Source of the DNA: Callorhinchus milii
Taxonomy: Eukaryota
NCBI RefSeq assembly: GCF_018977255.1
Contig: NW_024704742.1
Location: 98,270,001 to 98,334,000 of the forward strand
Length of the DNA: 64,000 nt
Reading direction: 5' to 3'
Part shown: in pieces, positions 2,345 to 44,859 of the stretch
Layout of the letters: every line of letters starts with the position of its first letter
Numbering within the stretch: the first letter of the stretch is position 1
Program-made: the position numbers and the translations under genes
Notes under the pieces: generated by a model
Database searches by the model: none
The model's input: the letters and a program-made list of their open reading frames with translations, nothing else
What the model was told of the DNA's origin: nothing

Positions 2345-2537
2345 GTAATAATAATGATAATCCTTGCAATTGATATAGCGCCTTATCATGTCTTGGGACG
2401 TCTCAAAGCGCTTCACAGAATATACTGTAAAGTGAATTGACTGTATATTTTTTGGGTGAAACACGGCAGCCAATTGTCAAACCCAGGTCTCTCTCTTGAG
2501 AGGTGAGAGCTCCAACCTCTGAGCTACAGGAGTCCAC
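2345..2537 (-). mobile_element. tRNA-derived SINE, internally deleted (head joined to tail)
   Basis: Reverse-complement tail (TAATAATCCTTGCAATTGATATAGCGCC…) at 2345-2475 and head (…GAGCTACAGGAGTCCAC) at 2478-2537. Confidence 0.85.
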
Positions 2538-3024
2538 AGTAGAAGGTGGTCCTTGTCCTCTCTGCATCTGCAGATCAGATACTGCTCTGGAGCTATTCCA
2601 CTCTGTCTCTCTTCATCCTCACAATTTAATTTCACTGCATTGTCTCCCTATCTCATCCTGGTTTCTGCCATTTATATTCCTTATTCTTTTCCATGATGAA
2701 CCTCACCTTACCTCTTTCATGTGTTCCATTCTCATTTGTTGCTCCTCCATCTCCTCATCTTTTTCTGCTGCTATCTCAGGATATCATCTCACATAAAAAA
2801 GCATATGGTTTCCTTTTGTTATAAATTGGGAATGCTCCATCATGCCCACTATAGCACTGGTAATTAGGTCTCTTAGAGCTGCCATGCAGACTGACTCACA
2901 AACTGACTCATTCTCCTCTCCTAGCACTTACCTTACTGCCATTGCTCCAACTTATCATCATATTGGACCCTTTGACCTCCCATGGGATCACTGCAATCTG
3001 AAACTTCTTTACTATCATCTGATC

Positions 3025-3185
3025 AGGCAGACGGGATCTTGGTTTGACACCTCATCCAAAAGATGGCAATGCTGCACCCCTTCAGCACTGACTAGACTGT
3101 ATGCGTTTTAAAGTCCCAATGTGGGGCTTGAACTCACCGCCTTCTGACTTAGATATGAGAGTGCTACCAATTGAGTCAGGCTGGC
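3025..3185 (-). mobile_element. Deu-domain SINE, 5' part with tRNA-like head
   Basis: Reverse complement reads CTGACTCAATTGGTAGCACTCTC…GAGTTCAAGCCCCAC…TTTTGGATGAGGTGTCAAACC. It matches the copy at 62700. Confidence 0.65.
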
Positions 3186-6100
3186 ACCTAAGCTACTAAC
3201 CCTTCAACCTGTCTTCAAAGACATTTTATACATATAACATTAAAAAAGACACTTGTCAATCACATTCCAAGTTCCCTACCACCATTGATATCTCCCCTGC
3301 CCCCTCACCCCTCTTGTTCCTGGTGACTTTAACTTGCACATTAATTCACCCAGACACTATTCTCAAATTTTGTCCTAAATTGTACAAATTGGATCCCGTT
3401 AAATAATGTATTGTCTTCACTGATGAGAAGCCGAAGTCAAGAGGCCTGTGGAGAAAGGTGGACTATGATGTTGCCTGACCATTTCCGATTTGTAACCATC
3501 ATGACTCCTCGTCAGTTACAAATATTCGGCTCCTTGGATTGGTAAACCATGTCAGATTTGTGCTGGGCAAACAATTGGCAGAGATATGTGAAAAAGACTG
3601 GAGCAAGTGTGGAAATTCTCAGGAAATCTCAGCTCCACTTGTCACTGCCGTGTCTTCAGTGAGATCCAAAGGCTTTATCTACCCAGTGATGGAATATTGC
3701 ATCTTGTTTAGCAGACAACAGGAAAGATGCATTTCTGTCCAATTAAAAATATCAAGTCCACATTCCGTAACACGTGCCTTGAGTCTCAAAGCAGCATTTC
3801 TCATGAATTTGCATTCATGGATATTAGTTCTTATTAAATTGTGGAAATATTAGACACTACCACTAAACATAAAGAAAGAATCATCAACTATTCTCAAAAG
3901 TCTGTTCTCAGCTGTCCAGGTGCCCAATTCAATTATTTGCACATCTCATTAACTATGTTGTAGCATAAATTTAATTAAAATTTAAATATGTATCTTTTGT
4001 GCTAGCAAACTAATTAGATTTCTGTATATGTTTACTGATGAATATTAGAGAGTGGCATTGGAGACACACATTGAATCTCAGAACACATCTTTATTCACAA
4101 TACCTTCCTTCGATTATTCAAAGGAATTATTAGCGATTTTTAAAAAAATCACACATTTGACTTGAAAGCACAAAATATATTTGGAATTGTCTGTAATAAC
4201 AGAGTCTGGTCCCACTGGCTGCTTAGAATTGTTTTGTGAATGTCCTTGACCATTCTGGACTTGCAGAAACATTAAAATTACTCTCAGTATTATATTCCTG
4301 TCTTTGGCAATGAGGTGCCTGTTATTGTATGATTCCATCATTTCCACCTCTGTGGTACTGGAATTTCCCTCCTATATTTTTTCTTATATTTTTAATTAAC
4401 TTTTATATCAAGCAGTTAATTAAATAGAGCACACCACAAAGTTACCAACAGTAGGAAATAGATATGAAAGGTCTATCAGCTTTCTGGGCTATAGACAGGA
4501 ACAAATATGAAGAGTGAAATTCCTCTTATATCGATAATAGGAAATACGTAGTTATACACAAAGAGTACATTTGCTTCCTCTAAGAACCCTTTTTTAGCAA
4601 ATGGCAGAAATATATCAGAGACATTTTACCCCTGGATTCTGCATAATCCAAAGTTGTACAGATTTGTGTACTGATAATGATGGTGTACTTCATGTCAAAG
4701 TCCAAAACTCTCTAATGTGGAAATGATGGGGCAAAACTGTCACTCTTTTATATAATTAAGGCTTGGGTACCACAAATTACCAAGTACTGTATTTATGACA
4801 GATCTTTTGTTTGGCACAGAGTCCATTGCAACTCAACATTTGTATCAATCTTTGATTTAGGCAGCAAGAAATTTATTAAACAATACATTTTTACCATTAA
4901 ATCTGTCTTTATGTTACATTATTTTCTAGTTTGTTGGACATTGCTGTGAGTAAATTGGCTGCCATGCTCCCCTACAAAGTATAGACACTGCACTTTATTC
5001 ACAGCATTTTCTGTGAAGTGCTTTGAGACATCATCCTGATGTAAAAGGCATTAAATGTACAAAATAAAATTTTTACCTAAGTTATGTGTGTCTATTGCAC
5101 AAAAATTGATAGTCTTAACATTTAACTTAATTGTTAATATTTCAACTGAACTGACCAAGTTCAGTCATTTTAGCATTGTTAGAAATAATATACAGCTTAA
5201 TATACAACTGTTCTTGTATGAAAGCAGAATAATAATAAAAAAAGAATAAATTGAATCTCATTTTTAATACAGCCACAAAGAAAAGAAATTGTTTCTAGAT
5301 CACTTAAAGGCAGAAAGGAGTTACATCAGGTGATCAATGTTAACAGGAAAATGAAAATAAAATAAAACCAATAAAATACTGCTTTGCATTAATTATGTTT
5401 TCCGTGCTGAATTCAAAGAATAATGCATGAGCAAAACAAAGAAAAACTTGGCATTGTTGACATGCATGGGCAACATTTCTCTGATATAATTGCTTTAATG
5501 CAAAAATAGTTGCTGACTGTTTTTCAAACACACTGAAATTGGTCTGTACTGCACCAGTCTAACCATTTCACAAACTGCTGCTGAATCACAGTCATCTCTC
5601 ACAAACAGAAGTCTCCAGCCCAAAACCAATCATCTTCAGTTCTCTTGGATTGCATCCAGCTCTGTCTGCAGTGACTATTTTAATGAACATCCCTTCCAAG
5701 TAGACAGTTCAAAGCTCCAGCACTGCAGACTCTGCACTGGATCATATTCCTGAAATGGAAGCAACTGTCAGTTATAATCCAGACTGGCGTTGGTGCCAAA
5801 AGGATGAAAATGTCTGTTTTTTGTAACAATGTTAACCCTCTGGAACTGTGGTATTAATTTTGACTCCAAATAGAAATAGAAGACATGGATTCTTTTCATT
5901 ATATTAAGCAATCTGAGATGCTACCCAGTGCGACGATCGCTACATAACTGCAAATTGTTGTTGAATATGCCGATAATGCAGTATCAAGGAAGTTGTTTTC
6001 CTGTGGCTGCACGTATGATCAGATTTTATTACACTCAGTGACCCCTCTATAACTCTAACTTGACATTATGCCCAATATAAAATGCTTTATAAAAGGTTTC

Positions 6101-6675: not shown

Positions 6676-6911
6676 AAAATGCAGGTCAACTGTATTCTTC
6701 ATGATATACAGCAGTTGTCTCACCGATCATTAAAATATAGTGATCTTTCCCATTCATCTTTATAATGGGGCTTCATGCCAATTAAACATTCATAAATCAG
6801 ACCCACAAGGTAACAGGATTGATGCTCAGTTTGTGCTGAGTTAACTAATCTTAGGCCGAGAAGCACTACAACTGGGCATCAGCACTCCTGATCTCTATCC
6901 AGTCTTTCCTG
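6676..6911 (+). repeat. Local direct duplication, copy 1 (~235 bp)
   Basis: Near-identical to 7395..7637 (AAAATGCAGGTCAAC…CTCCTGATCTCTATCCAGT). Confidence 0.95.
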
Positions 6912-6970
6912 GAATGTGTGCATGTGTAAATGTTTGTTGGGGATGGAATTTGGCTTGGCTGCTTGGGTGG
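6800..6970 (+). mobile_element. Old interspersed repeat, probably a separate SINE family (also at 54675..54820)
   Basis: Shares GTGCT…CTACAA(C/T)TGG…CTCCTG…TATC(C/G)AGT…TGGAA(A/T)GT motifs with the 54.7 kb copy. Confidence 0.45.
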
Positions 6971-7013
6971 GGATGAATGATGAGCAAGAGAGAAGGGGAT
7001 GATCAAAGAGGTA

Positions 7014-7310
7014 GGTGGACTCCTGTTGCGTCTGGGTTAGAACACTTGCCTTGCAAGTGGGAGGACGTGGATTCGATTCCCGGGCAGGGCGCAAGTTTTT
7101 TTTACACACCTCTGTTTACCTAGCAGTAAGTAGGAATGCAGTTGTCAGCTGATTGGCAGATCACTTTCCAGGGGCAATAATCCCTTCAAAAAAAAAGATA
7201 ATAATAATTTGGTCACTAACTCCACAACTATTTGTGGAACACTGCTGTGCCCAATTGGTTGGCTCGTTGTCGTGCACAAAATATACAGCCAATTCACTTT
7301 GCAGTGTGAT
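7014..7310 (+). mobile_element. tRNA-derived SINE lacking its 3' stem-loop and tail
   Basis: GTGGACTCCTG head, B box GGATTCGATTCCC, and a body matching the 58635 copy. It ends at CACTTTGCAGTG. Confidence 0.85.
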
Positions 7311-7317
7311 CCTGTAT

Positions 7318-7392
7318 TCTGATCTTCTAACCTAATTCCATTTACCCGCCCTATCCCCATATCCTTTAATCCCTTAGTTCTTAAAAATCTTT
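7318..7392 (-). mobile_element. Short CR1 3' fragment
   Basis: CTAATTCCATTTACCCGCCCTATCCCCATATCC is identical to the CR1 sequence near 21542. Confidence 0.8.
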
Positions 7393-7394
7393 TA

Positions 7395-7637
7395 AAAATG
7401 CAGGTCAACCTTATTCTTTGTGATATACAGCAGTTGTCTGTCTCACCGCTCATTAAAATATAGTGATCTTTCCCATTCATCTTTATAATGGGGCTTCATG
7501 CCAATTAAACATTCATAGATCAGACCCACAAGGTAACAGGATTGATGCTCAGTTTGTGCTGAGTTAACTAATCTTAGGCCGAGAGGCACCATAACTGGGC
7601 ATCAGCACTCCTGATCTCTATCCAGTATCCTTTCCTG
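7395..7637 (+). repeat. Local direct duplication, copy 2
   Basis: Near-identical to 6676..6911 with a few substitutions and small indels. Confidence 0.95.
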
Positions 7638-9714: not shown

Positions 9715-9993
9715 ACTACTAATACTAACATATACTGATTTACAGAAGGGTTTTGATAAGGTGTTGCCTAGGAGGCTTGCTAAAAAATTAAGGATTAATG
9801 GAAAGGTAGCAACATGGATCGAAAGTTGTTTAAAATGGGAAACAGAGGGTGGGAGTAAAGAGTTGAAATCCACAATGGATTGGTCAGTGTTAGGACCATT
9901 GCTTTTCTCCATTTATAAAAATGAACTAGATTCTGGTATAAGTGGCAACATTTCTAAATTTGTAGATGCCTTGGAATTGGGGAGTGTAAATTG
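9715..9993 (+). mobile_element. CR1 ORF2 reverse-transcriptase fragment, left part (split by an L2)
   Basis: Translates YTDLQKGFDKV…KVATWIESCL…[28 protein letters not shown]…LGSVN, which are CR1 RT motifs. Confidence 0.85.
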
Positions 9994-9997
9994 AATG

Positions 9998-12900
9998 AAC
10001 AACAACAACAACAACAAGATACCATTTATTGAGCGCCTTTCACGTCGGGAGGACGTCCCAAGGTGCTGTACAGTTGGGTCAGGACCCGAGCAAGGGGGGA
10101 AATGGTCAGGGTGAGGGGAGGGAAGGGAGGGAGCGAGGAGGGGGTAGAGAGTCGAGAGGGGAGCTGAAGGCACGGTCAAAGAGAAAGGTCTTGAGACCGG
10201 CCTTGAAGGAGGAAAGGGAGGAGGCGGCGAAGGCACTGGGGATAGAGTTCCAGAGCCTCGGGGCTGAGAGGCTGAAGGCCTGGCCACCGATAGTAGGGCG
10301 GTTGGGGCGGGGGATGTGGAGCAGACCGGAGACAGAGGAACGGAGGGTACGGGCGGGTAGGTAGGGGGATAGTAGGTCGGAGAGGTAGGAGCCATGAATG
10401 GCCTTGTAGGTGAGGGTGAGGATCTTGAATTCGATCCTCTGGGGGATGGGGAGCCAGTGGAGGCGAGCGAGGGTGGGAGTGATGTGGTCGCGAAGCCTGG
10501 TGCGGGACAGTACACGAGCTGCAGAGTTCTGAATGACCTGCAGCTTGTGGAGGGAGGTGCCGGGAAGGCCGGCGAGGAGAGAGTTCCCATAGTCCAGCCT
10601 TGAGGTGATAAAGGCGTGGACCAGAGTTTCAGCAGCGTGAGGGGTGAGGTAGTGCCATAGTCTGGCGACATTCAGGGGGTGATGGAAGGCGGTGCCAGTT
10701 GTGGCGCGGATATGGGGGAGAAAGGACAGGTCAGGGTCAAACAGAACCCCGAGGTTCCTGACTGGCTTTGAGAGGTGGAGAGTGCAGCCTTGGATGCTGA
10801 TGCTGTCAGCGCCTGAGGTGCGGAGGCGCTGACGCGAGCCAATCAGGAGGGCCTCAGTTTTGCGCACGTTGAGCTGGAGAAAGTTATCTCTCGTCCAGGA
10901 CTCGATGTCGGACAGGCAGGCTGTCAGGACATCGGTGGTTGTGGAGTTGAGGGTAGAGGAGGAAAGGTAGAGTTGGGTGTCATCCGCATACATGTGGAAG
11001 TTAACCCCATGTCTGCGGATGATGTCACCAAGGGGGAGCATATAGAGGGTGAAGAGGAGGGGACCGAGGACAGAGCCTTGAGGGACACCGCACGAGACAG
11101 TGCGGGGCCGGAGGAAAAACCATTTGTGGAGACAAAGTGAAGACGGTGGGAGAGGTACGACCTAAACCACTCAAGGACAGGGCCTTGAAGGTTTAGGTGG
11201 GAGGACAAGCGGTGGAGGAGGATAGCATGGTCGACCGTATCGAATGCTGCCGATAGGTCGAGGAGGACGAGGAGGCAGAGGGAGCCCTGGTCACAGATGG
11301 TCAGGATGTCATTGGTGACCTTGACCAGGGCAGTTTCTGTGCTATGGGCAGCACGGAAACCCGATTGAAGGGGTTCGAATAGTGAATGGTTGGAGAGGAA
11401 AGAGCGCAGCTGGGAGGCGACAACTCGTTCCAGGACCTTGGATAGGAAGGGGAGGTTGGAGATGGGCCGGTAGCTTGATAGCTGCGACACATCAAGGGAG
11501 GTTTTTTTTAAGGTGGGAGTGATGGTGGCAGTTTTTAAGGGAATGGGAATAGAGCCAGAGGAGAGGGACAGGTTGACGATGTCTGTGATATGTGGGGCAA
11601 GGAGGTGGAGCTGGGAGATAAGGAGTGGAGTGGGGATGGGGTCAAGGGAGCAGGTGGTAGGTTTCAGGGAGAGGATGAGTTTGGTGACAGAGGGTGGGGA
11701 AACGGGTACGAAGGTGTGTAGGGGAGGATGGGTAGGAGTCGGAGTGTGGGAGGGAAGGGGTGGGTGGTGGGTGGATGTTGGAGGGGAAGTGACCGCGGAG
11801 CGGATTCCCTTGATCTTGGATTCAAGGAAATCCAGCATCTCCTCGCAGTGAAGGTTGGAGGAGATGACCTGCGCGGGGTGGCGGGGGGGACGGAGGAGTT
11901 GGGATGTGGTAGAGAACAGTAGCCTGGGGTTGTCCTTCGCCTCCAGGATTATCCTGGAGTAGAAGGACGATTTGGCCGAGGCTAGAGTGGAGCGGTAGAT
12001 TTTGAGGAGGTCCAGCCAGATTTGTCGGTGGAACGTTAGACCAGATTTGACGCAGGTGCATTCAATGGCCCGCACCTGGCTTTTCAGTGAGTGAAGGTGG
12101 GTGGTGAACCAGGGGGAGGAGCGAGAGTAGGAGACAGTATGGGAGGTGATAGGGGCAAGAGTGTCAAGTGTGGAGGAGAGGGTGTTTTGGAGGAGGGTGA
12201 GAGCAGAAGAGGGGTCGGTGAGGGTTGAAGGCCAGAGGGAGAGGAGTTCAGAGGACTCCAAGGCAGCGGTTAGGGATTGTGGGGGTAACTTCTTCCAGGG
12301 GCGGTAGAAGATGGTGGTGGGTCTGGTGGAGGTGGGGGTGGGGGGGGGTGGAGGTGGTGAAGGAGAGGGAGAGGTTGAGCGAGGAGAGCAGGGAAGAGAA
12401 ATCTGAGGAGATTGAGCAGGAGGGGGTGAAGTGAAGTGCAGGTTAAAGTCGCCCAGGATGATGAGGCGATCAGAGCAGAGGCAGAGAGATGTGAGAAGTG
12501 TTGAGATATCAGAGATAAAGGTGGGAGAGGCTTTAGGGGGCCGGTAGAGGGGGAGGATTTTAAGTGAGAGGAAGGAGGGGTGGGAGAGGGTGAGGTGCTC
12601 AAAAAAGGGGAAAGAGCCAAAGGAGTAGGGGGATAGGGCAAGTGGTGTCCTTGAGATAAGGGCAACACCACCGCCACGGCGGTTGGGGCGAGGGATGTGG
12701 TGGGAGGTGTAGCCGGGTGGCGTGGCCTCCGTGAGGGGGAAGGTGTCACTTGGGGTGAGCCAGGTTTCCGTTAAGGCCATGATGTCAACGCTCTCATCAA
12801 GGATGAGATCGTTGATGACCAGGGCCTTGTTACAGAGGGAGCGGACATTTTGTAGTCCGATGTGGATGGAGCTGTTGACAGAAGGGTGTGTGGGGAGGGA

Positions 12901-13110
12901 GGGGGGGTCCCGGTTGTGAGGCAGGGGTGGGGGAAATGGGGGTAAGGGAGGAGAGGTTGGCTCCCCGGGTCTGTGTCCGGAGTGGCTGGCGAGTGTGGTG
13001 GGGAATGGGGCAGTCGGTGTGGCTGCTGCTGGACAGCCAACGCCGAATGCCACGGTGAGCCCGGCGGAGGATTCCCAGGCTGGAACAGAGGGAGGTTGTG
13101 GGAGGGTCAC
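9998..13110 (-). mobile_element. Young L2 LINE (~3.1 kb), 5'-truncated just upstream of the APE domain
   Basis: APE endonuclease motifs (LQNVRSL, ALTETWL, RGGGVAL, YRPP, GDFNLH); RT motifs (YRPISNLP, QSGFR…[27 protein letters not shown]); L2 C-terminus ([16 protein letters not shown]); 3' stem-loop and (TTG)n tail near 10000-10070. Confidence 0.97.
10106..13110 (-). pseudogene. Disrupted L2 ORF2 (APE endonuclease-reverse transcriptase)
   Basis: ORFs 10924..13110 and 10106..11041 are split by a 1-nt frameshift near 11105 (the 47 kb copy reads [19 protein letters not shown]). There is a compensated frameshift plus deletion near 12330-12430 and a 9-nt deletion near 10393 (HG-SY versus HGLTPSY). 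Confidence 0.9.
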
Positions 13111-13200
13111 TGTAGAAGAAGACTGTAAGCAACTTCAGGAGGATATACACAGAGTAGTTGATTGGGCAGAGAAATGGCAAATGAAATTTAACGTATCAGA
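13111..13200 (+). mobile_element. CR1 ORF2 fragment, right part (continues 9715..9993)
   Basis: EEDCKQLQEDIHRVVDWAEKWQMKFNV directly follows …LGSVN. Compare VVNSEEDCNQLQADIHRMVEWADMWQMDFNV in the CR1 at 47.5 kb. Confidence 0.9.
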
Positions 13201-16417: not shown

Positions 16418-16864
16418 AAATGGTTGAGTACTTTTTGGGGATTAGTACTTGCAGTGTGTGCCCATGTTTGTACGTGTATATGGTAGCAGGGTGCTGTGTG
16501 TTGTATTCTTCTGTTGTTGCTTATACTTCAGGAGTGAGGCCTGGATCCTCTGACTGATTTAATTTGCGTTACATTTGTTTTTCATAGAACTGTCTGACTG
16601 AAGGAGAAGGTCTCGTGCATGAGTACAGTACATAAGTGTGGGAATGATTTGGAGCCATAGAAAAGCTAACCCCTAAGCCTCACTTTCTTGAAATGCTTGG
16701 ACCATTTCTCCTTCACAGAGATCCTCATAACTTTCACTTTGTTTGTCAATTGTGACCCACATCACTCAATTACTCTTGCCCTGATCTCTGTTCACAGCCA
16801 GGCTACCAAATTAATTCCTGTTGAACCAAGCTCCATGTACTTGAACTGGAGAAGGTGACAGTTC

Positions 16865-17136
16865 TAATAATAATGATAATCCTTGCATTTGATATAGCAC
16901 TTTATCACATCATTGTGCTGTGCGTAATTGGCTGCCACGTTTCGCCCACAAAATGTACAGTCAATGCACTTTACAGAATATTCTGTGAAGTGCTTTGAGA
17001 AGTCTTAAAGCCGTGATAAGGCACTATACTAAATGCAAGGATTATTATTATTATAGGATTACTATTATTGAGACATTTTAAAGCACTTCCCAGAATATAC
17101 TGTAAAGTGCATTGACTGTGTATTTTGTGGGTGAAA
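16865..17136. mobile_element. Cluster of three SINE 3' fragments in -,+,- orientation
   Basis: Minus tail 16865-16910, plus fragment 16915-17055 and minus fragment 17070-17136 are mutually inverted. Confidence 0.85.
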
Positions 17137-17214
17137 TCTTGAAGAGGACTGCCTGCATCTTATTATTCACTTGATCACATGGTCCCACTCCGTTAGACAT
17201 CCAAAAGTACCGCA

Positions 17215-41550: not shown

Positions 41551-42186
41551 GATTAAGGGTATATGCGACTAAAATGGGAATTCTCATCACTATGCGAACA
41601 ACACTGACCAGAATTGTTAACCAAAGACCGTGTAAGTCACTGTAAAGTATGGGGTTCATTGCTGGAGCCACAGTTTGCGTGAGAGGTACTGTTTCTGTCA
41701 GTGAGTCGACAGTGACACAAGTGCTTTTCCTGAGGACCCTTGTCTCAACTACATTTAAAAATGAGTTAGGAAAATAATGAAACTGAGCACCCCCAATGGA
41801 GGTTTAGGAAAAAGCAAAAGCAGATAAGGAAGCAATAAAATGTGAAATTTCAGCACAATTTTGCAACCAAAATATGGAAAGGAGTGGGACATTAGAGGAG
41901 GCAATTCAAGATGTTAAACTTGACATGCAAAACATCAAAGATAAAGATAAAATGCTGCTTCATTGGTCAGCGATGTTTTTAGCATCATTTTTAGTGATTA
42001 TATTATAGTTGGAGTTTCCATAAAGCTGTTCAGTATTCCAAAGATTAAAGGTTATGCATTCGGAGGTTGGTTTTACTAGGTTGGGTCGACTGATTCTCTA
42101 CCAATGTACATATATGAGCCCCATGATTGGTAAGGTATTGGTGTGCAGCAAACACAAGCTTTTGTTTGCAGTTCATTGAGTTACCT

Positions 42187-42400
42187 ATACACAGAAAACA
42201 AATGAATAACCACAGTTGTATCTTCATCCACCTCCTCCTCCATTTTGGTAGAGTCTTTTTTAATCTTCTAAAGTTCCTCCAATTCTTTCTGTAGTAATTT
42301 TGTTCTGTTTCTTGCTCCAAATTCTGTTGTGGACTTTGTTTCAATTTTTCCTCAATTTTCCTCAGTTCCAGAAACCTGTTCACGCTGTCGCGTGTGTCTA
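42187..42400 (-). pseudogene. SPC24: Degraded SPC24 (NDC80 kinetochore complex) fragment, apparently intronless
   Basis: One frame reads LLQKELEEL*KIKKDSTKMEEEVDEDTTVVI…SVY, versus recalled human SPC24 YLTRELEELKEIEADLERQEKEVDEDTTVTIPSAVY. The upstream frame DTRDSVNRFLELRKIEEKL resembles ETQDGAEKQLREILTMEKEV. It has a frameshift, a stop and an apparent internal deletion. Confidence 0.75.
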
Positions 42401-42503
42401 CAAAATACACGGTCATTACACTTTACATTAAAGCTTGTGAAGCTCTTTGAGATGTCCTTCTGACATGAAAGAAACAGTATCAAATGCAAGGATTATTATT
42501 ATT
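42401..42503 (+). mobile_element. 5'-truncated SINE tail abutting the SPC24 fragment
   Basis: CAAAATACACGGTCA…GAAGCTCTTTGAGATGTCC…CAAATGCAAGG(ATT)n. Confidence 0.8.
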
Positions 42504-44859
42504 TTTCATATGTCAAATATGTGCATTTGCTCTGCTGCAACAAACTATTAATATTCATTCCCGCTGTAACATGGCCACAGAACAGCCTTTCCTATACCCA
42601 TGGAATATCGACACGTTAGTGGTCAAGGGTGATTTTACAAAGTAGGTCAAGTTTTTAATGTTTTCATTGCAATATAATTTTTTTTATAGCAGGAGTTTTC
42701 ACAAAGCATTCCAAGCATGAAATATTAATTCATTCGGAGGTTGCTTTCATCATACTGGGGCCAAACAATGTACCACTAATGTACATTTACTAGCTCCATG
42801 AATTGTAATCCATTGGTGTGCAGCTTGTTTGCAGTTCATTGGGTTACCTGTGCCTTTCGGCTCTCACAGTGACATGTCCATATTTCGTGACTAGCAACCG
42901 TGCAACATGCAGCCTTTATATAACCAACTAAAAATTGTTCCCTTACAGTAAAGACTCTGGCTGCAAAAAGGAGATTTTATTTGCAGTAATTTCTAGGAAA
43001 CAGAACTGTGAACAATGTCGCAGCCTATTCAGTGCAGTGAAGAATGCTAATGTGAAGAGTATTCCACTTTCCCTTAGCCTGACAGCACACAACAGATAAA
43101 TCAGGATCAATACAGCCCTCACACATAGACTCAGCAGTCAGTGCATTCCCGAAGATAACATAGCAGTTCAACCTCCATTCACCTGTCAAATGAATGGATG
43201 AGAAATCGGGGCATATGTTTAGATAGGCATGTATTTATTTTTTAACATTAACTCAGTAATTGTGTACCATCAGTTGCTGAGGATGTGCTTTGTGGATTCA
43301 GTGGGAATTCCTGTAGGCATTCTGGACTATTGGACCATAAATAACACTGCACATGGGTGACATATTTGAAGTGACACAAGAAAAATAGGTGGAGCCTAAG
43401 TAAGTGCCCTGTAATACCACTGTGTAAGAGCATGTTTATGTGGCATCAGAATTACAGTCTAAGCAGATATATGCTGACATCACGCTAATGCTTTTCTATT
43501 CAGAGGTTGTTGCTTCAATATTACTACCTGTAAATAAAATAAACTTCTGTATTCTTTACCATGTCGTGCTTCTGTATTTTTTCATTTACCCTTCCTAACC
43601 TAAGTCATTTTTCAACATGACTTCCCACGTTCCCAGAGTATACGCTCAGCACAAGTTCACATTGGTGAATAAATCATGTTCAACACGCTACAGAAATAAA
43701 AATGGCTTTTGTTTAATTACCAGAAGCAATGACATGAAACAAAACATGAACAAACTGTCATTTAACTAATTGTTTGAAAAAAAATCAACTCTCATGGATA
43801 ACAGGCTTGATTTAAAAAATCAAAGTACATTCTGATAAATAAGCAGTGTCATCTTTCAATAAAAAAAGCATGGTGAGAAAGAAAAGGGTGTCTGTGTTGC
43901 ATTTTCAAATGATAGTGCTTATTCCTTCTAATGATAATAATATAACAATAACAATAATTTAATATAGTGCTTTTCACTTCGGGAGGATGTCTCAAAGCAC
44001 TTCACAGGATATAGTGACTGTGTATTTTGTTAGCGAACTTGGCAGCCAATTTGCACATAGCAATATCTTATAAAACTTTCTACCAAACAGTTCTGCCAGA
44101 GTTATTCTTACTTTTAATTGTACAATTCTTTTAAAAAAACTCCTTTTGTTTCTTAGTTTAGTGAGAGATGAGAGATGAGGAATGAAGAACACAGATCATA
44201 GAAAACCACTGAATGCCTGTCACAGAGCTATCTTATCAGCAGCAGCCTTGGATATGTCAGCAAAACAAGTAAAGGCTACAGGGGCTTCCTGTAGATCAGT
44301 CAGGATCAGATAATTTCAATGTAAAAACATAGCAATAGCAGCATGTCCATCAACACATGATTAGAGTCTTGAATTTAAAGCATCCCAGGGGAGGAGGACC
44401 CCTGTGCCTGATTACAGAGTGCGCTTACAAAATATCTTTTTCTGTCATTCTCTTGTAGCCTTTCTGCTCTAAGGCATAAACTAATAGACCACAGAAATGA
44501 CAATCAAAAATATTTCTCAGTAGCTGCAACAAAAGGAACGATTCGATAATCCAACACTTTGAACTTTCTGTTGTGACAGGTGACATATTGGGCTCTTACA
44601 ATTATATGATTACACAGATTGGAATTACCTACCGACAAGCGACTGAAATGGAAAGTTGTAAGTTATTACCACAGTGCCCTACAATTATCAGCACAACAGT
44701 CTCAATTTGCCATACATCATGTTGGATTGACTCGAGTTGTTACGTGCAAGGTATTTGTAATGTATACTATAATTTGCGTATAGCTGGAAGCAAAGACAGT
44801 CCTATGATTTGACTGTGCGTTCACCAACTCTAGGCTTGACTTCTTCATTGTTTTGCTCT

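What the first reader, a model, noticed from the sequence alone, without database searches (positions are those of the whole stretch)
42187..42503. Internal SPC24 cDNA-like fragment fused head-to-head with a SINE 3' end
Seen: the minus strand encodes LLQKELEEL*KIKKDSTKMEEEVDEDTTVVI…SVY and, one frameshift upstream, DTRDSVNRFLELRKIEEKL. Its 5' end abuts, at 42400/42401, the truncated 5' end of an oppositely oriented SINE tail. Knowledge (recalled, not searched): EVDEDTTV is characteristic of vertebrate SPC24, and this span crosses exon junctions in mammalian SPC24. L2/CR1 machinery recognises its own 3' tail and rarely makes processed pseudogenes. Inference: the fragment has no 3' end or poly(A), so it is not a standard retrocopy. 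It may record mRNA capture during an L2-driven SINE insertion (a twin-priming-like event on two RNAs) or RNA-templated break repair.
Basis: partly seen in the sequence, partly recalled or inferred. Interest (0 to 1): 0.7.

Follow-up and report, generated by a model that had tools for sequence, protein, structure and literature searches.

The report
Backwards SPC24 mRNA piece beside SINE
A dead 174-base piece of spliced messenger RNA from the chromosome-segregation gene SPC24 sits backwards against the tail half of a short jumping element in a chimaera genome, and the two were possibly (about even odds) written in together from the two ends of one DNA cut, a by-product known from human LINE-1 but little documented for this class of element.

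Summary
The feature is real. Window 42201-42374 (minus strand) is 87% identical to the spliced SPC24 mRNA of a five-exon parent on another contig. It crosses a junction where a 456-nt AT-AC minor intron is removed exactly. It has no poly(A) and faces a 5'-truncated SINE tail starting at 42384, not 42400; 'DTRDSVN' and 'SVY' are not SPC24. Taillessness is ordinary here: 12 of 12 dispersed HSP90AA1 copies stop before the poly(A) signal, 10 of them within one 20-nt stretch. Head-to-head co-insertion is not common: 0 of 15 surveyed fragments show it cleanly. For one event: exact abutment (chance 0.5-2%), overlapping ages, a 190-bp local duplication ending 10 nt from the cDNA, and a young precedent. 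The scan had already noted that precedent on other DNA (a DMRT-type piece plus SINE), and I checked its layout. Against: no provable shared target duplication, no junction microhomology, the SINE looks slightly older, and no empty site is available. Verdict: two-ended priming on two RNAs about 0.5, sequential insertion about 0.37. It is an ancient, inert variant of a known L1 by-product. The internal priming hot spot is the more interesting side result.

The parts
41997..42190 (+). Upstream copy (Z') of a two-copy local direct duplication; ends 10 nt from the cDNA's 3' end. It may be the remnant of a long target-site duplication or a flank-templated junction insert (inferred).
   Evidence: 133 matches, 40 mismatches, 4 gaps to 42678-42853, K2P 0.278; HOXD70 score 7200 against a maximum of -794 in 200 random windows; only these two copies found genome-wide
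42191..42200 (.).
   Evidence: Outside the alignment to parent mRNA and outside the alignment to the downstream duplicate
42201..42298 (-). SPC24 exon 3 part of the cDNA fragment; in-frame stop at 42268-42270; ends a few bases before the end of exon 3, at a (G/A)TT-like triplet run of the mRNA
   Evidence: 89% to G000:C29:2714306-2714403; stop; tail-likeness score in the top 1-8% of mRNA positions, a post hoc score
42299..42374 (-). SPC24 exon 2 3' part of the cDNA fragment, joined to exon 3 without the 456-nt AT-AC intron; 1-nt deletion just before the junction
   Evidence: 88% to G000:C29:2714864-2714936; spliced alignment and U12 5' splice site and branch site; the same 456-nt skip in RNA-type contigs of 3 of 4 runs, 2 studies
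42375..42383 (.). 5'-to-5' junction zone, 9 nt, fits parent mRNA poorly and the SINE consensus not at all; no microhomology shown
   Evidence: Alignments
42384..42503 (+). 5'-truncated tRNA-head SINE, model positions 194-313 of 313, with (ATT)n tail; member of the oldest subfamily in the sample
   Evidence: nhmmer E=2.2e-19; 18.3% (all sites) and 15.3% (non-CpG) from its subfamily consensus, subfamily median about 20%
42504..42677 (.). Unique right flank (Y); no significant counterpart left of the insertion
   Evidence: 125-267 of 594 random windows score as well as 41830-41996 under three scoring schemes
42678..42853 (+). Downstream copy (Z) of the local duplication

Best explanation
A spliced, tailless SPC24 cDNA fragment lies head-to-head with a 5'-truncated SINE tail, and the two were likely written into one chromosomal cut in a single event, each RNA likely primed from one of the two DNA ends by the L2-type reverse transcriptase that is thought to move this SINE. 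In this model the bottom-strand end primed on the SINE's (ATT)n tail and the top-strand end primed inside the SPC24 mRNA at a tail-like triplet run. The two short cDNAs were then end-joined 5'-to-5' without microhomology. The two nicks may have been far apart, which would leave a long duplication now partly lost (Z'/Z). Shown: mRNA origin, geometry, junction positions and the duplication. Inferred: simultaneity, the enzyme, the priming chemistry and the origin of the duplication. The product is an old, non-coding relic: about 0.10-0.17 substitutions per site, or roughly 100-170 My at the SINE rate of PMC5499810.
For: (1) Geometry equals that of two-RNA twin-priming chimeras: the inverted partner is 3'-truncated and the element is 5'-truncated with its tail (PMC4476161 passages; PMC13174262 passages). 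(2) Abutment within 9 nt; the chance per fragment end is 0.46-0.65%, or 1.9% if a 70-nt landing window with deletion is allowed. (3) Ages overlap: cDNA vs parent 21/174 (95% CI 0.076-0.179), SINE 14/92 non-CpG (0.086-0.242), duplication pair 40/173 (K2P 0.278, so about 0.14 per copy); Fisher p=0.14-0.57. In the three-way clustering 193 of 270 tails fall in younger subfamilies. (4) A low-copy duplication ends 10 nt from the cDNA; only 7 such duplications exist in 864 kb. One of them is a perfect 212-bp target duplication around a young truncated SINE (C2:30.134 Mb), so this SINE does make long duplications. (5) A young precedent at C1:42.747 Mb: an antisense DMA-domain piece (Pfam E=2.4e-10) plus SINE 214-313 sit at one site inside a 94-99% young LINE whose two halves rejoin with 3 nt lost.
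Against: (1) 0 of 15 other dispersed mRNA-like fragments (12 HSP90AA1, 2 EEF1A, 1 HSPA8) show clean co-insertion. The one head-to-head case (C3:4.810 Mb) has collinear SINE pieces on both sides (124-168 and 226-313), so it is better read as a cDNA landing inside an older SINE. (2) Stand-alone tailless copies are common, so SPC24 needed no SINE partner. (3) Point estimates make the SINE older (0.15-0.18) than the cDNA (at most 0.12, part of it the parent's own change; non-synonymous sites 0.085). (4) The duplication does not reach the SINE tail: the 174 nt between them have no significant left counterpart, so a duplication bracketing both pieces is not shown, and the duplication fits sequential insertion equally well. 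(5) No junction microhomology and no clear priming complementarity. (6) Abutting SINE pairs are not enriched head-to-head (8 vs 13 tail-to-tail among 537 hits), and 0 of 392 tailed SINEs had a tailless inverted piece of the window's LINE at the 5' end. (7) Zebrafish ZfL2-1 made no 5' inversions in cell assays (PMC4245944 passages). (8) This case and the precedent were picked because they abut, which inflates the coincidence.
Confidence: 0.5

Rival explanations
1. Two separate insertions. The SPC24 piece is an ordinary stand-alone tailless retrocopy, primed at a tail-like triplet run. It landed at or inside the 5' part of an older SINE and removed any upstream SINE sequence by target deletion; less likely, the SINE landed later at the cDNA's 5' end.
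For: 12 of 12 HSP90AA1 copies are tailless and most have no SINE partner. SINEs cover 9.9% of the sampled DNA. The HSP90AA1 copy at C3:4.810 Mb shows this route leaving a head-to-head joint. The SINE looks slightly older than the cDNA. SINEs also abut the 3' end of 2 other HSP90AA1 copies, so abutment has other causes. The SPC24 3' end is as tail-like as the HSP90AA1 hot spot.
Against: No upstream SINE remnant lies left of the cDNA and no SPC24 remnant lies beyond the SINE tail. Landing that precisely has a chance of only 0.5-2%. The ages are statistically compatible.
Confidence: 0.37
2. A free SPC24 cDNA was captured as a patch in endonuclease-independent repair of a double-strand break at or next to the SINE (class 2 templated insertion), with the local duplication made during the same repair.
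For: No poly(A), no short target duplication and filler bases at both joints. The size (174 nt) is near the 191-nt median of experimental templated insertions (PMC5110952 passages).
Against: Short target duplications cannot be seen at this age anyway (5 of 146 old copies vs 8 of 146 shifted controls). The clustered 3' ends of HSP90AA1 and EEF1A copies point to site-specific priming rather than random patches, and the SPC24 end looks like such a site.
Confidence: 0.09
3. Classical twin priming on one RNA: an SPC24 transcript that itself ended in this SINE (in its 3' UTR or a read-through) was copied from the SINE tail while a coding piece was inverted.
For: Earlier scan notes describe retrocopies in this genome that end at a SINE carried in the parent's UTR (unchecked). 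Same-strand SINEs lie in SPC24 intron 1 and 2.6 and 6.2 kb downstream of the stop.
Against: None of 24 SINE hits in 30 kb around the parent looks like the donor. They are 23-46% distant (one hit too short to score) and share 0-2 of this copy's 14 rare states, no more than background; 52 of 269 random copies share 2 or more. L004 is repeat-free from 2407 to 5306, which covers the 3' UTR. No UTR sequence precedes the SINE in the insert.
Confidence: 0.04

Closest known systems
Two-RNA twin-priming chimeras of mammalian L1: inverted 3'-truncated U1/U2/U5/U6 with L1 or SVA (Doucet et al. 2015, PMC4476161, passages read); antisense tRNA, 5S and mRNA/L1 chimeras (Law and Burns 2026, PMC13174262, passages read)
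   Same: A cellular RNA piece, 3'-truncated and in opposite orientation, directly 5' of a truncated retroelement that keeps its tail.
   Different: Here the partner is a non-autonomous SINE with an L2-type tail in a cartilaginous fish, not L1. No short shared target duplication, priming complementarity or phylogenetic co-arrival could be shown. A long local duplication lies at the joint instead.
Tailless retropseudogenes (Noll et al. 2015, PMC5322556, passages read)
   Same: 3'-truncated copy without oligo(A), attributed to internal priming, with preferred end points.
   Different: That paper ties them to relaxed L1 and found none in platypus or chicken. Here they come from mRNAs in a genome whose commonest SINE has an L2-type tail, and the end points sit at (G/A)TT-like runs (post hoc score). 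Which enzyme made them was not tested; earlier notes mention L1/Tx1 elements in this genome (unchecked).
CmiSINEs and SacSINE1-CM mobilised by L2-2_CM in Callorhinchus milii (Luchetti et al. 2017, PMC5499810, passages read)
   Same: tRNA-like head in the consensus, a 3' tail shared with a LINE (47 of 69 columns to the window's endonuclease+RT LINE; my count), very high copy number.
   Different: Only the shared 3' 120 nt is present, so CmiSINE and SacSINE1-CM cannot be told apart here. No Repbase consensus was available for a direct comparison.
Class 2 templated sequence insertion polymorphisms (Onozawa and Aplan 2016, PMC5110952, passages read)
   Same: Short cDNA patch, no poly(A), no short target duplication.
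   Different: Fixed and ancient here; adjoined to a SINE 5' end and a local duplication; microdeletion at the empty site untested.

Membership tests
Processed pseudogene (mRNA retrocopy) | Exon junction joined without the intron | tested here: met
   456-nt AT-AC intron removed exactly; same skip in RNA-type contigs of 3 of 4 runs
Processed pseudogene (mRNA retrocopy) | Dispersed from the parent, no flanking intron, disabled | tested here: met
   Parent on C29, copy on C1; one stop and one frameshift
Processed pseudogene (mRNA retrocopy) | mRNA 3' end with poly(A) | tested here: not met
   Ends in exon 3; exons 4-5 and the 3' UTR have no match in the window
Two-RNA twin-priming chimera | 3'-truncated cellular RNA inverted against a 5'-truncated tailed element | tested here: met
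Two-RNA twin-priming chimera | One target-site duplication brackets both pieces | tested here: inconclusive
   No short duplication (best 5-6 nt), but short ones are undetectable at this age; the 190-bp duplicate starts 174 nt beyond the tail and that gap has no significant left copy
Two-RNA twin-priming chimera | Complementarity between the target end and the RNA at the second priming site | tested here: inconclusive
   A 10-nt unassigned linker separates the two
Two-RNA twin-priming chimera | Both pieces arrive at the same phylogenetic node | not testable with these tools
   No relatives' genomes are held; run holders with a share of 0.3 or more are all one organism; divergence clocks are only compatible
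Tailless retropseudogene (Noll 2015) | 3' truncation without oligo(A) | tested here: met
Tailless retropseudogene (Noll 2015) | Made by relaxed L1 with an L1-type target site and short duplication | not tested
   No L1 survey was made; the target site is not recoverable
CmiSINE / SacSINE1-CM (L2-2_CM tail) | 3' tail homologous to a partner LINE | tested here: met
   Alignment to the 3' end of the window LINE, which carries endonuclease and RT domains; assignment to clade L2 follows PMC5499810 and was not tested by a tree
CmiSINE / SacSINE1-CM (L2-2_CM tail) | Identity to the published consensus and CORE or Deu body | not testable with these tools
   The body is absent from this copy; no Repbase library on hand
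Class 2 templated insertion (break patch) | Microdeletion or microhomology at the empty site, no duplication | not testable with these tools
   No empty allele among the 8 joints listed for 4 runs of one study

The most novel reading that the evidence does not exclude
The supposedly stringent L2 machinery of this chimaera retroposes ordinary mRNAs by priming at internal (G/A)TT triplet runs that mimic its own tail, which makes tailless retrocopies with fixed end points. At widely staggered cuts it primes two different RNAs at the two ends, giving head-to-head mRNA/SINE chimeras flanked by duplications of hundreds of bases; the SPC24 locus would be an old product of this route.
Probability: 0.3. 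Interest if true: 0.62.

Novelty: new variant of a known kind. Interest (0 to 1): 0.38.

Why it matters
The locus itself is an inert relic. If the co-insertion reading holds, it extends two-RNA twin priming from mammalian L1 to an L2-driven SINE, although a fish L2 gave no inversions in cell assays. It would also suggest that long nick spacing is what permits second-end priming. The side result is directly testable in existing fish-L2 retrotransposition assays: retrocopies of HSP90AA1 and EEF1A end at fixed internal tail-like sites rather than at poly(A). That bears on how genomes dominated by stringent LINEs still make retrocopies. The fragment also preserves an AT-AC minor-intron junction that the UniRef protein model of the parent reads differently.

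Tried and rejected
(1) A 350-bp target duplication bracketing the whole insert was suggested by a local alignment. I rejected it as shown: its 5' half scores at background. (2) I first counted the HSP90AA1 copy at C3:4.810 Mb as a second co-insertion (1 of 14, p=0.06-0.09). I withdrew it because SINE pieces on both sides are collinear; its inner piece was too short to join the alignment. (3) Donor SINE in the SPC24 locus: none. (4) Head-to-head excess among SINE pairs or SINE/LINE pairs: none. (5) Uninformative searches: Pfam Spc24 over the genome and Pfam GAPDH found nothing, not even the parent genes; Pfam gave no hit for the fragment's peptide; HSP90AA1 5' exons found paralogs and one 73% hit. 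(6) Rows dropped before the count of 15: 15 HSP70-family loci (13 matched intronless HSP70 genes at 70-88%, so splicing is untestable, and 2 did not); paralogous gene exons; EEF1A hit L214 (69%, no match to the piece tested); HSP90 hit L197 (the script stopped before it); and the LINE-tail hits that crowded (40 of 373 candidates scored, so EEF1A is under-sampled). (7) Host gene: 82 of 318 stop-to-stop frames were scanned; apart from two weak DUF hits below cut-off, only LINE domains were found. A coiled-coil-like frame at 41808-42005 had no PDB hit. (8) Expression: no RNA holder listed for the locus. (9) Literature searches that found no report of tailless or inverted mRNA captures by L2/CR1 in cartilaginous fishes: (open-access library only; listings and selected passages; no supplements read, and the 17 mRNA/L1 chimeras of PMC13174262 Table S5 were not seen).

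Full report
1. What is there. The minus strand of 42184-42303 reads as a broken Spc24 peptide whose best PDB hit is human Spc24 (E=0.0017). A genome search with 42180-42402 found, besides itself, only two matches, 460 nt apart on contig C29. That locus holds a five-exon gene of 597 nt. Its exon 5 matches Spc24 structures (E=1.2e-10) and its exon 2 is identical to a UniRef Spc24 labelled Callorhinchus milii. Introns 2 and 4 carry U12-type splice and branch signals, and intron 2 is AT-AC. Mouse Spc24 is a known minor-intron gene (bioRxiv 10.1101/182816, passages). Window 42201-42374 aligns to the spliced sequence over 175 columns at 87.4% across the exon 2/3 junction. RNA-type contigs of 3 of 4 runs, from two studies, skip the same 456 nt. 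So the fragment comes from spliced mRNA. It lacks exons 4-5, the 3' UTR and poly(A). It carries one stop and one 1-nt deletion, with 9 synonymous and 12 non-synonymous differences.

2. The neighbours. A SINE profile built from 68 near-full copies places model positions 194-313 at 42384-42503 on the plus strand. The SINE consensus has a tRNA-like head, and its tail aligns to the 3' end of an endonuclease+RT LINE in the window. This fits the CmiSINE/SacSINE1-CM and L2-2_CM pair (PMC5499810, passages). On the left, after 10 unassigned bases, 41997-42190 is a direct copy of 42678-42853 (23% mismatch, K2P 0.278), found only twice in the genome. The 174 nt between the SINE tail and that copy have no significant left counterpart. 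Contigs of four runs from one study bridge the cDNA/SINE joint, two in one piece from 41757 to 42463, and none of the 8 listed joints skips the insert. No host gene was found in the 82 of 318 frames scanned.

3. Is taillessness special? No. A search with the last two HSP90AA1 exons and the 3' UTR up to the poly(A) signal scored all 16 candidates. Beside the gene and two paralogs it gave 16 matches at 12 dispersed loci. Five of the 12 cross the last exon junction; RNA origin of the other 7 is inferred. All 12 stop before the poly(A) signal, 10 of them between mRNA positions 491 and 510 with unrelated flanks; one has a 7-A run. Two EEF1A fragments end 7 nt apart (under-sampled search). These end points and the SPC24 end score high for (G/A)TT triplets like the SINE and LINE tails: top 3% of mRNA positions for 6 HSP90AA1 ends, but top 34-82% for the other 6; top 11% for EEF1A; top 1-8% for SPC24. 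I designed this score after seeing the data. Retrocopies in cartilaginous fishes are numerous (bioRxiv 10.64898/2026.06.26.734816, passages). Tailless copies were previously tied to L1 (PMC5322556, passages).

4. One event or two? For one event: the joint is within 9 nt, against a chance of 0.5-2%. Three clocks overlap: 21/174, 14/92, and 40/173 for the pair. A rare duplication ends at the other joint (7 in 864 kb), and this SINE demonstrably makes long target duplications (a perfect 212-bp one at C2:30.134 Mb; a 1228-bp one is reported for ZfL2-2 in PMC2666801, passages). A lead from an earlier scan note held up in layout: at C1:42.747 Mb an antisense DMA-domain piece and a young SINE tail sit at one site within a young LINE whose halves rejoin with 3 nt lost; its splicing and parent I did not test. 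Against one event: 0 of 15 surveyed fragments show clean co-insertion (upper 95% bound 22%). The one head-to-head HSP90AA1 copy is flanked by collinear SINE pieces and is best read as landing inside an older SINE. SINEs abut two other copies at the 3' end. The SINE here looks slightly older than the cDNA. SINE pairs show no head-to-head excess (8 vs 13). ZfL2-1 gave no 5' inversions in cells (PMC4245944, passages). The duplication fits either order of events; the same paper says that 5' extra bases of L2 inserts are often copied from flanks. The lack of a short duplication says nothing at this age. A SINE-ended SPC24 transcript as a single template is unlikely.

5. Mechanism and odds. Most likely (0.5), both ends of one staggered cut were primed, one on the SINE tail and one inside SPC24 mRNA, and the cDNAs were end-joined. 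Next (0.37), a stand-alone tailless retrocopy landed at the edge of an older SINE. A break patch (0.09) and single-RNA twin priming (0.04) follow. mRNA origin, geometry and the duplication are shown; simultaneity, the enzyme and the priming mode are inferred.

6. Comparison and novelty. It works like the inverted snRNA/L1 and antisense mRNA/L1 chimeras (PMC4476161; PMC13174262; passages only). Membership is unproven because a shared target duplication and co-arrival could not be shown. In the open library I found no report of such captures, or of tailless mRNA retrocopies, for L2-driven elements in cartilaginous fishes, but subscription papers and supplements were not seen. PMC3747384 (passages) and PMC5110952 (passages) gave background. 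I rate it a new variant of a known kind, inert, interest 0.38. The internal priming hot spot deserves the follow-up more than this locus does.

Noticed in passing
G000:C9:4.890 Mb (L097) and 12 dispersed copies, among loci L242-L257: All 12 HSP90AA1 retro-fragments are tailless, and 10 end within 20 nt in the 3' UTR, about 150 nt before the poly(A) signal, at a tail-like triplet run: an internal priming hot spot.
   Followed up: partly
G000:C2:30133935-30134574 (in loci L049-L068): A young 5'-truncated SINE flanked by a perfect 212-bp direct duplication, a very long target-site duplication; an assembly check was not made.
   Followed up: partly
L004:5405-5860 (SPC24 intron 2) and protein P0002: The UniRef SPC24 model reads through the AT-AC donor into intron sequence, whereas RNA contigs and the retro-fragment both use the AT-AC junction; the database model is probably mis-spliced there.
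   Followed up: yes
window 6676-7637: A 93% identical 240-bp direct duplication brackets a tailless SINE and another repeat piece; possibly another long target duplication.
   Followed up: no
window 16863-17144: A short inverted SINE tail abuts a truncated SINE head-to-head, followed by another inverted piece: a hairpin-like three-part SINE cluster.
   Followed up: no
window 42201-42374: 14 of the 21 differences from the parent have A in the copy (9 G/A, 5 C/A) and none is C-to-T; direction unknown without an outgroup. GC-biased change in the parent is one possible cause.
   Followed up: no
L246 (G000:C2:39.56 Mb): An HSP90AA1 fragment is followed after 7 nt by a near-full SINE in the same orientation: a candidate template-switch chimera.
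   Followed up: no
L157 and L159-L167: Ten dispersed 90-200-nt pieces 70-79% like intronless HSP70, all from the same part of the gene; perhaps an old repeat carrying an HSP70 piece.
   Followed up: no
window 9916-13200 (-): A LINE with long endonuclease and RT reading frames in two pieces; other copies match it at 94-99%, so the family is young.
   Followed up: partly
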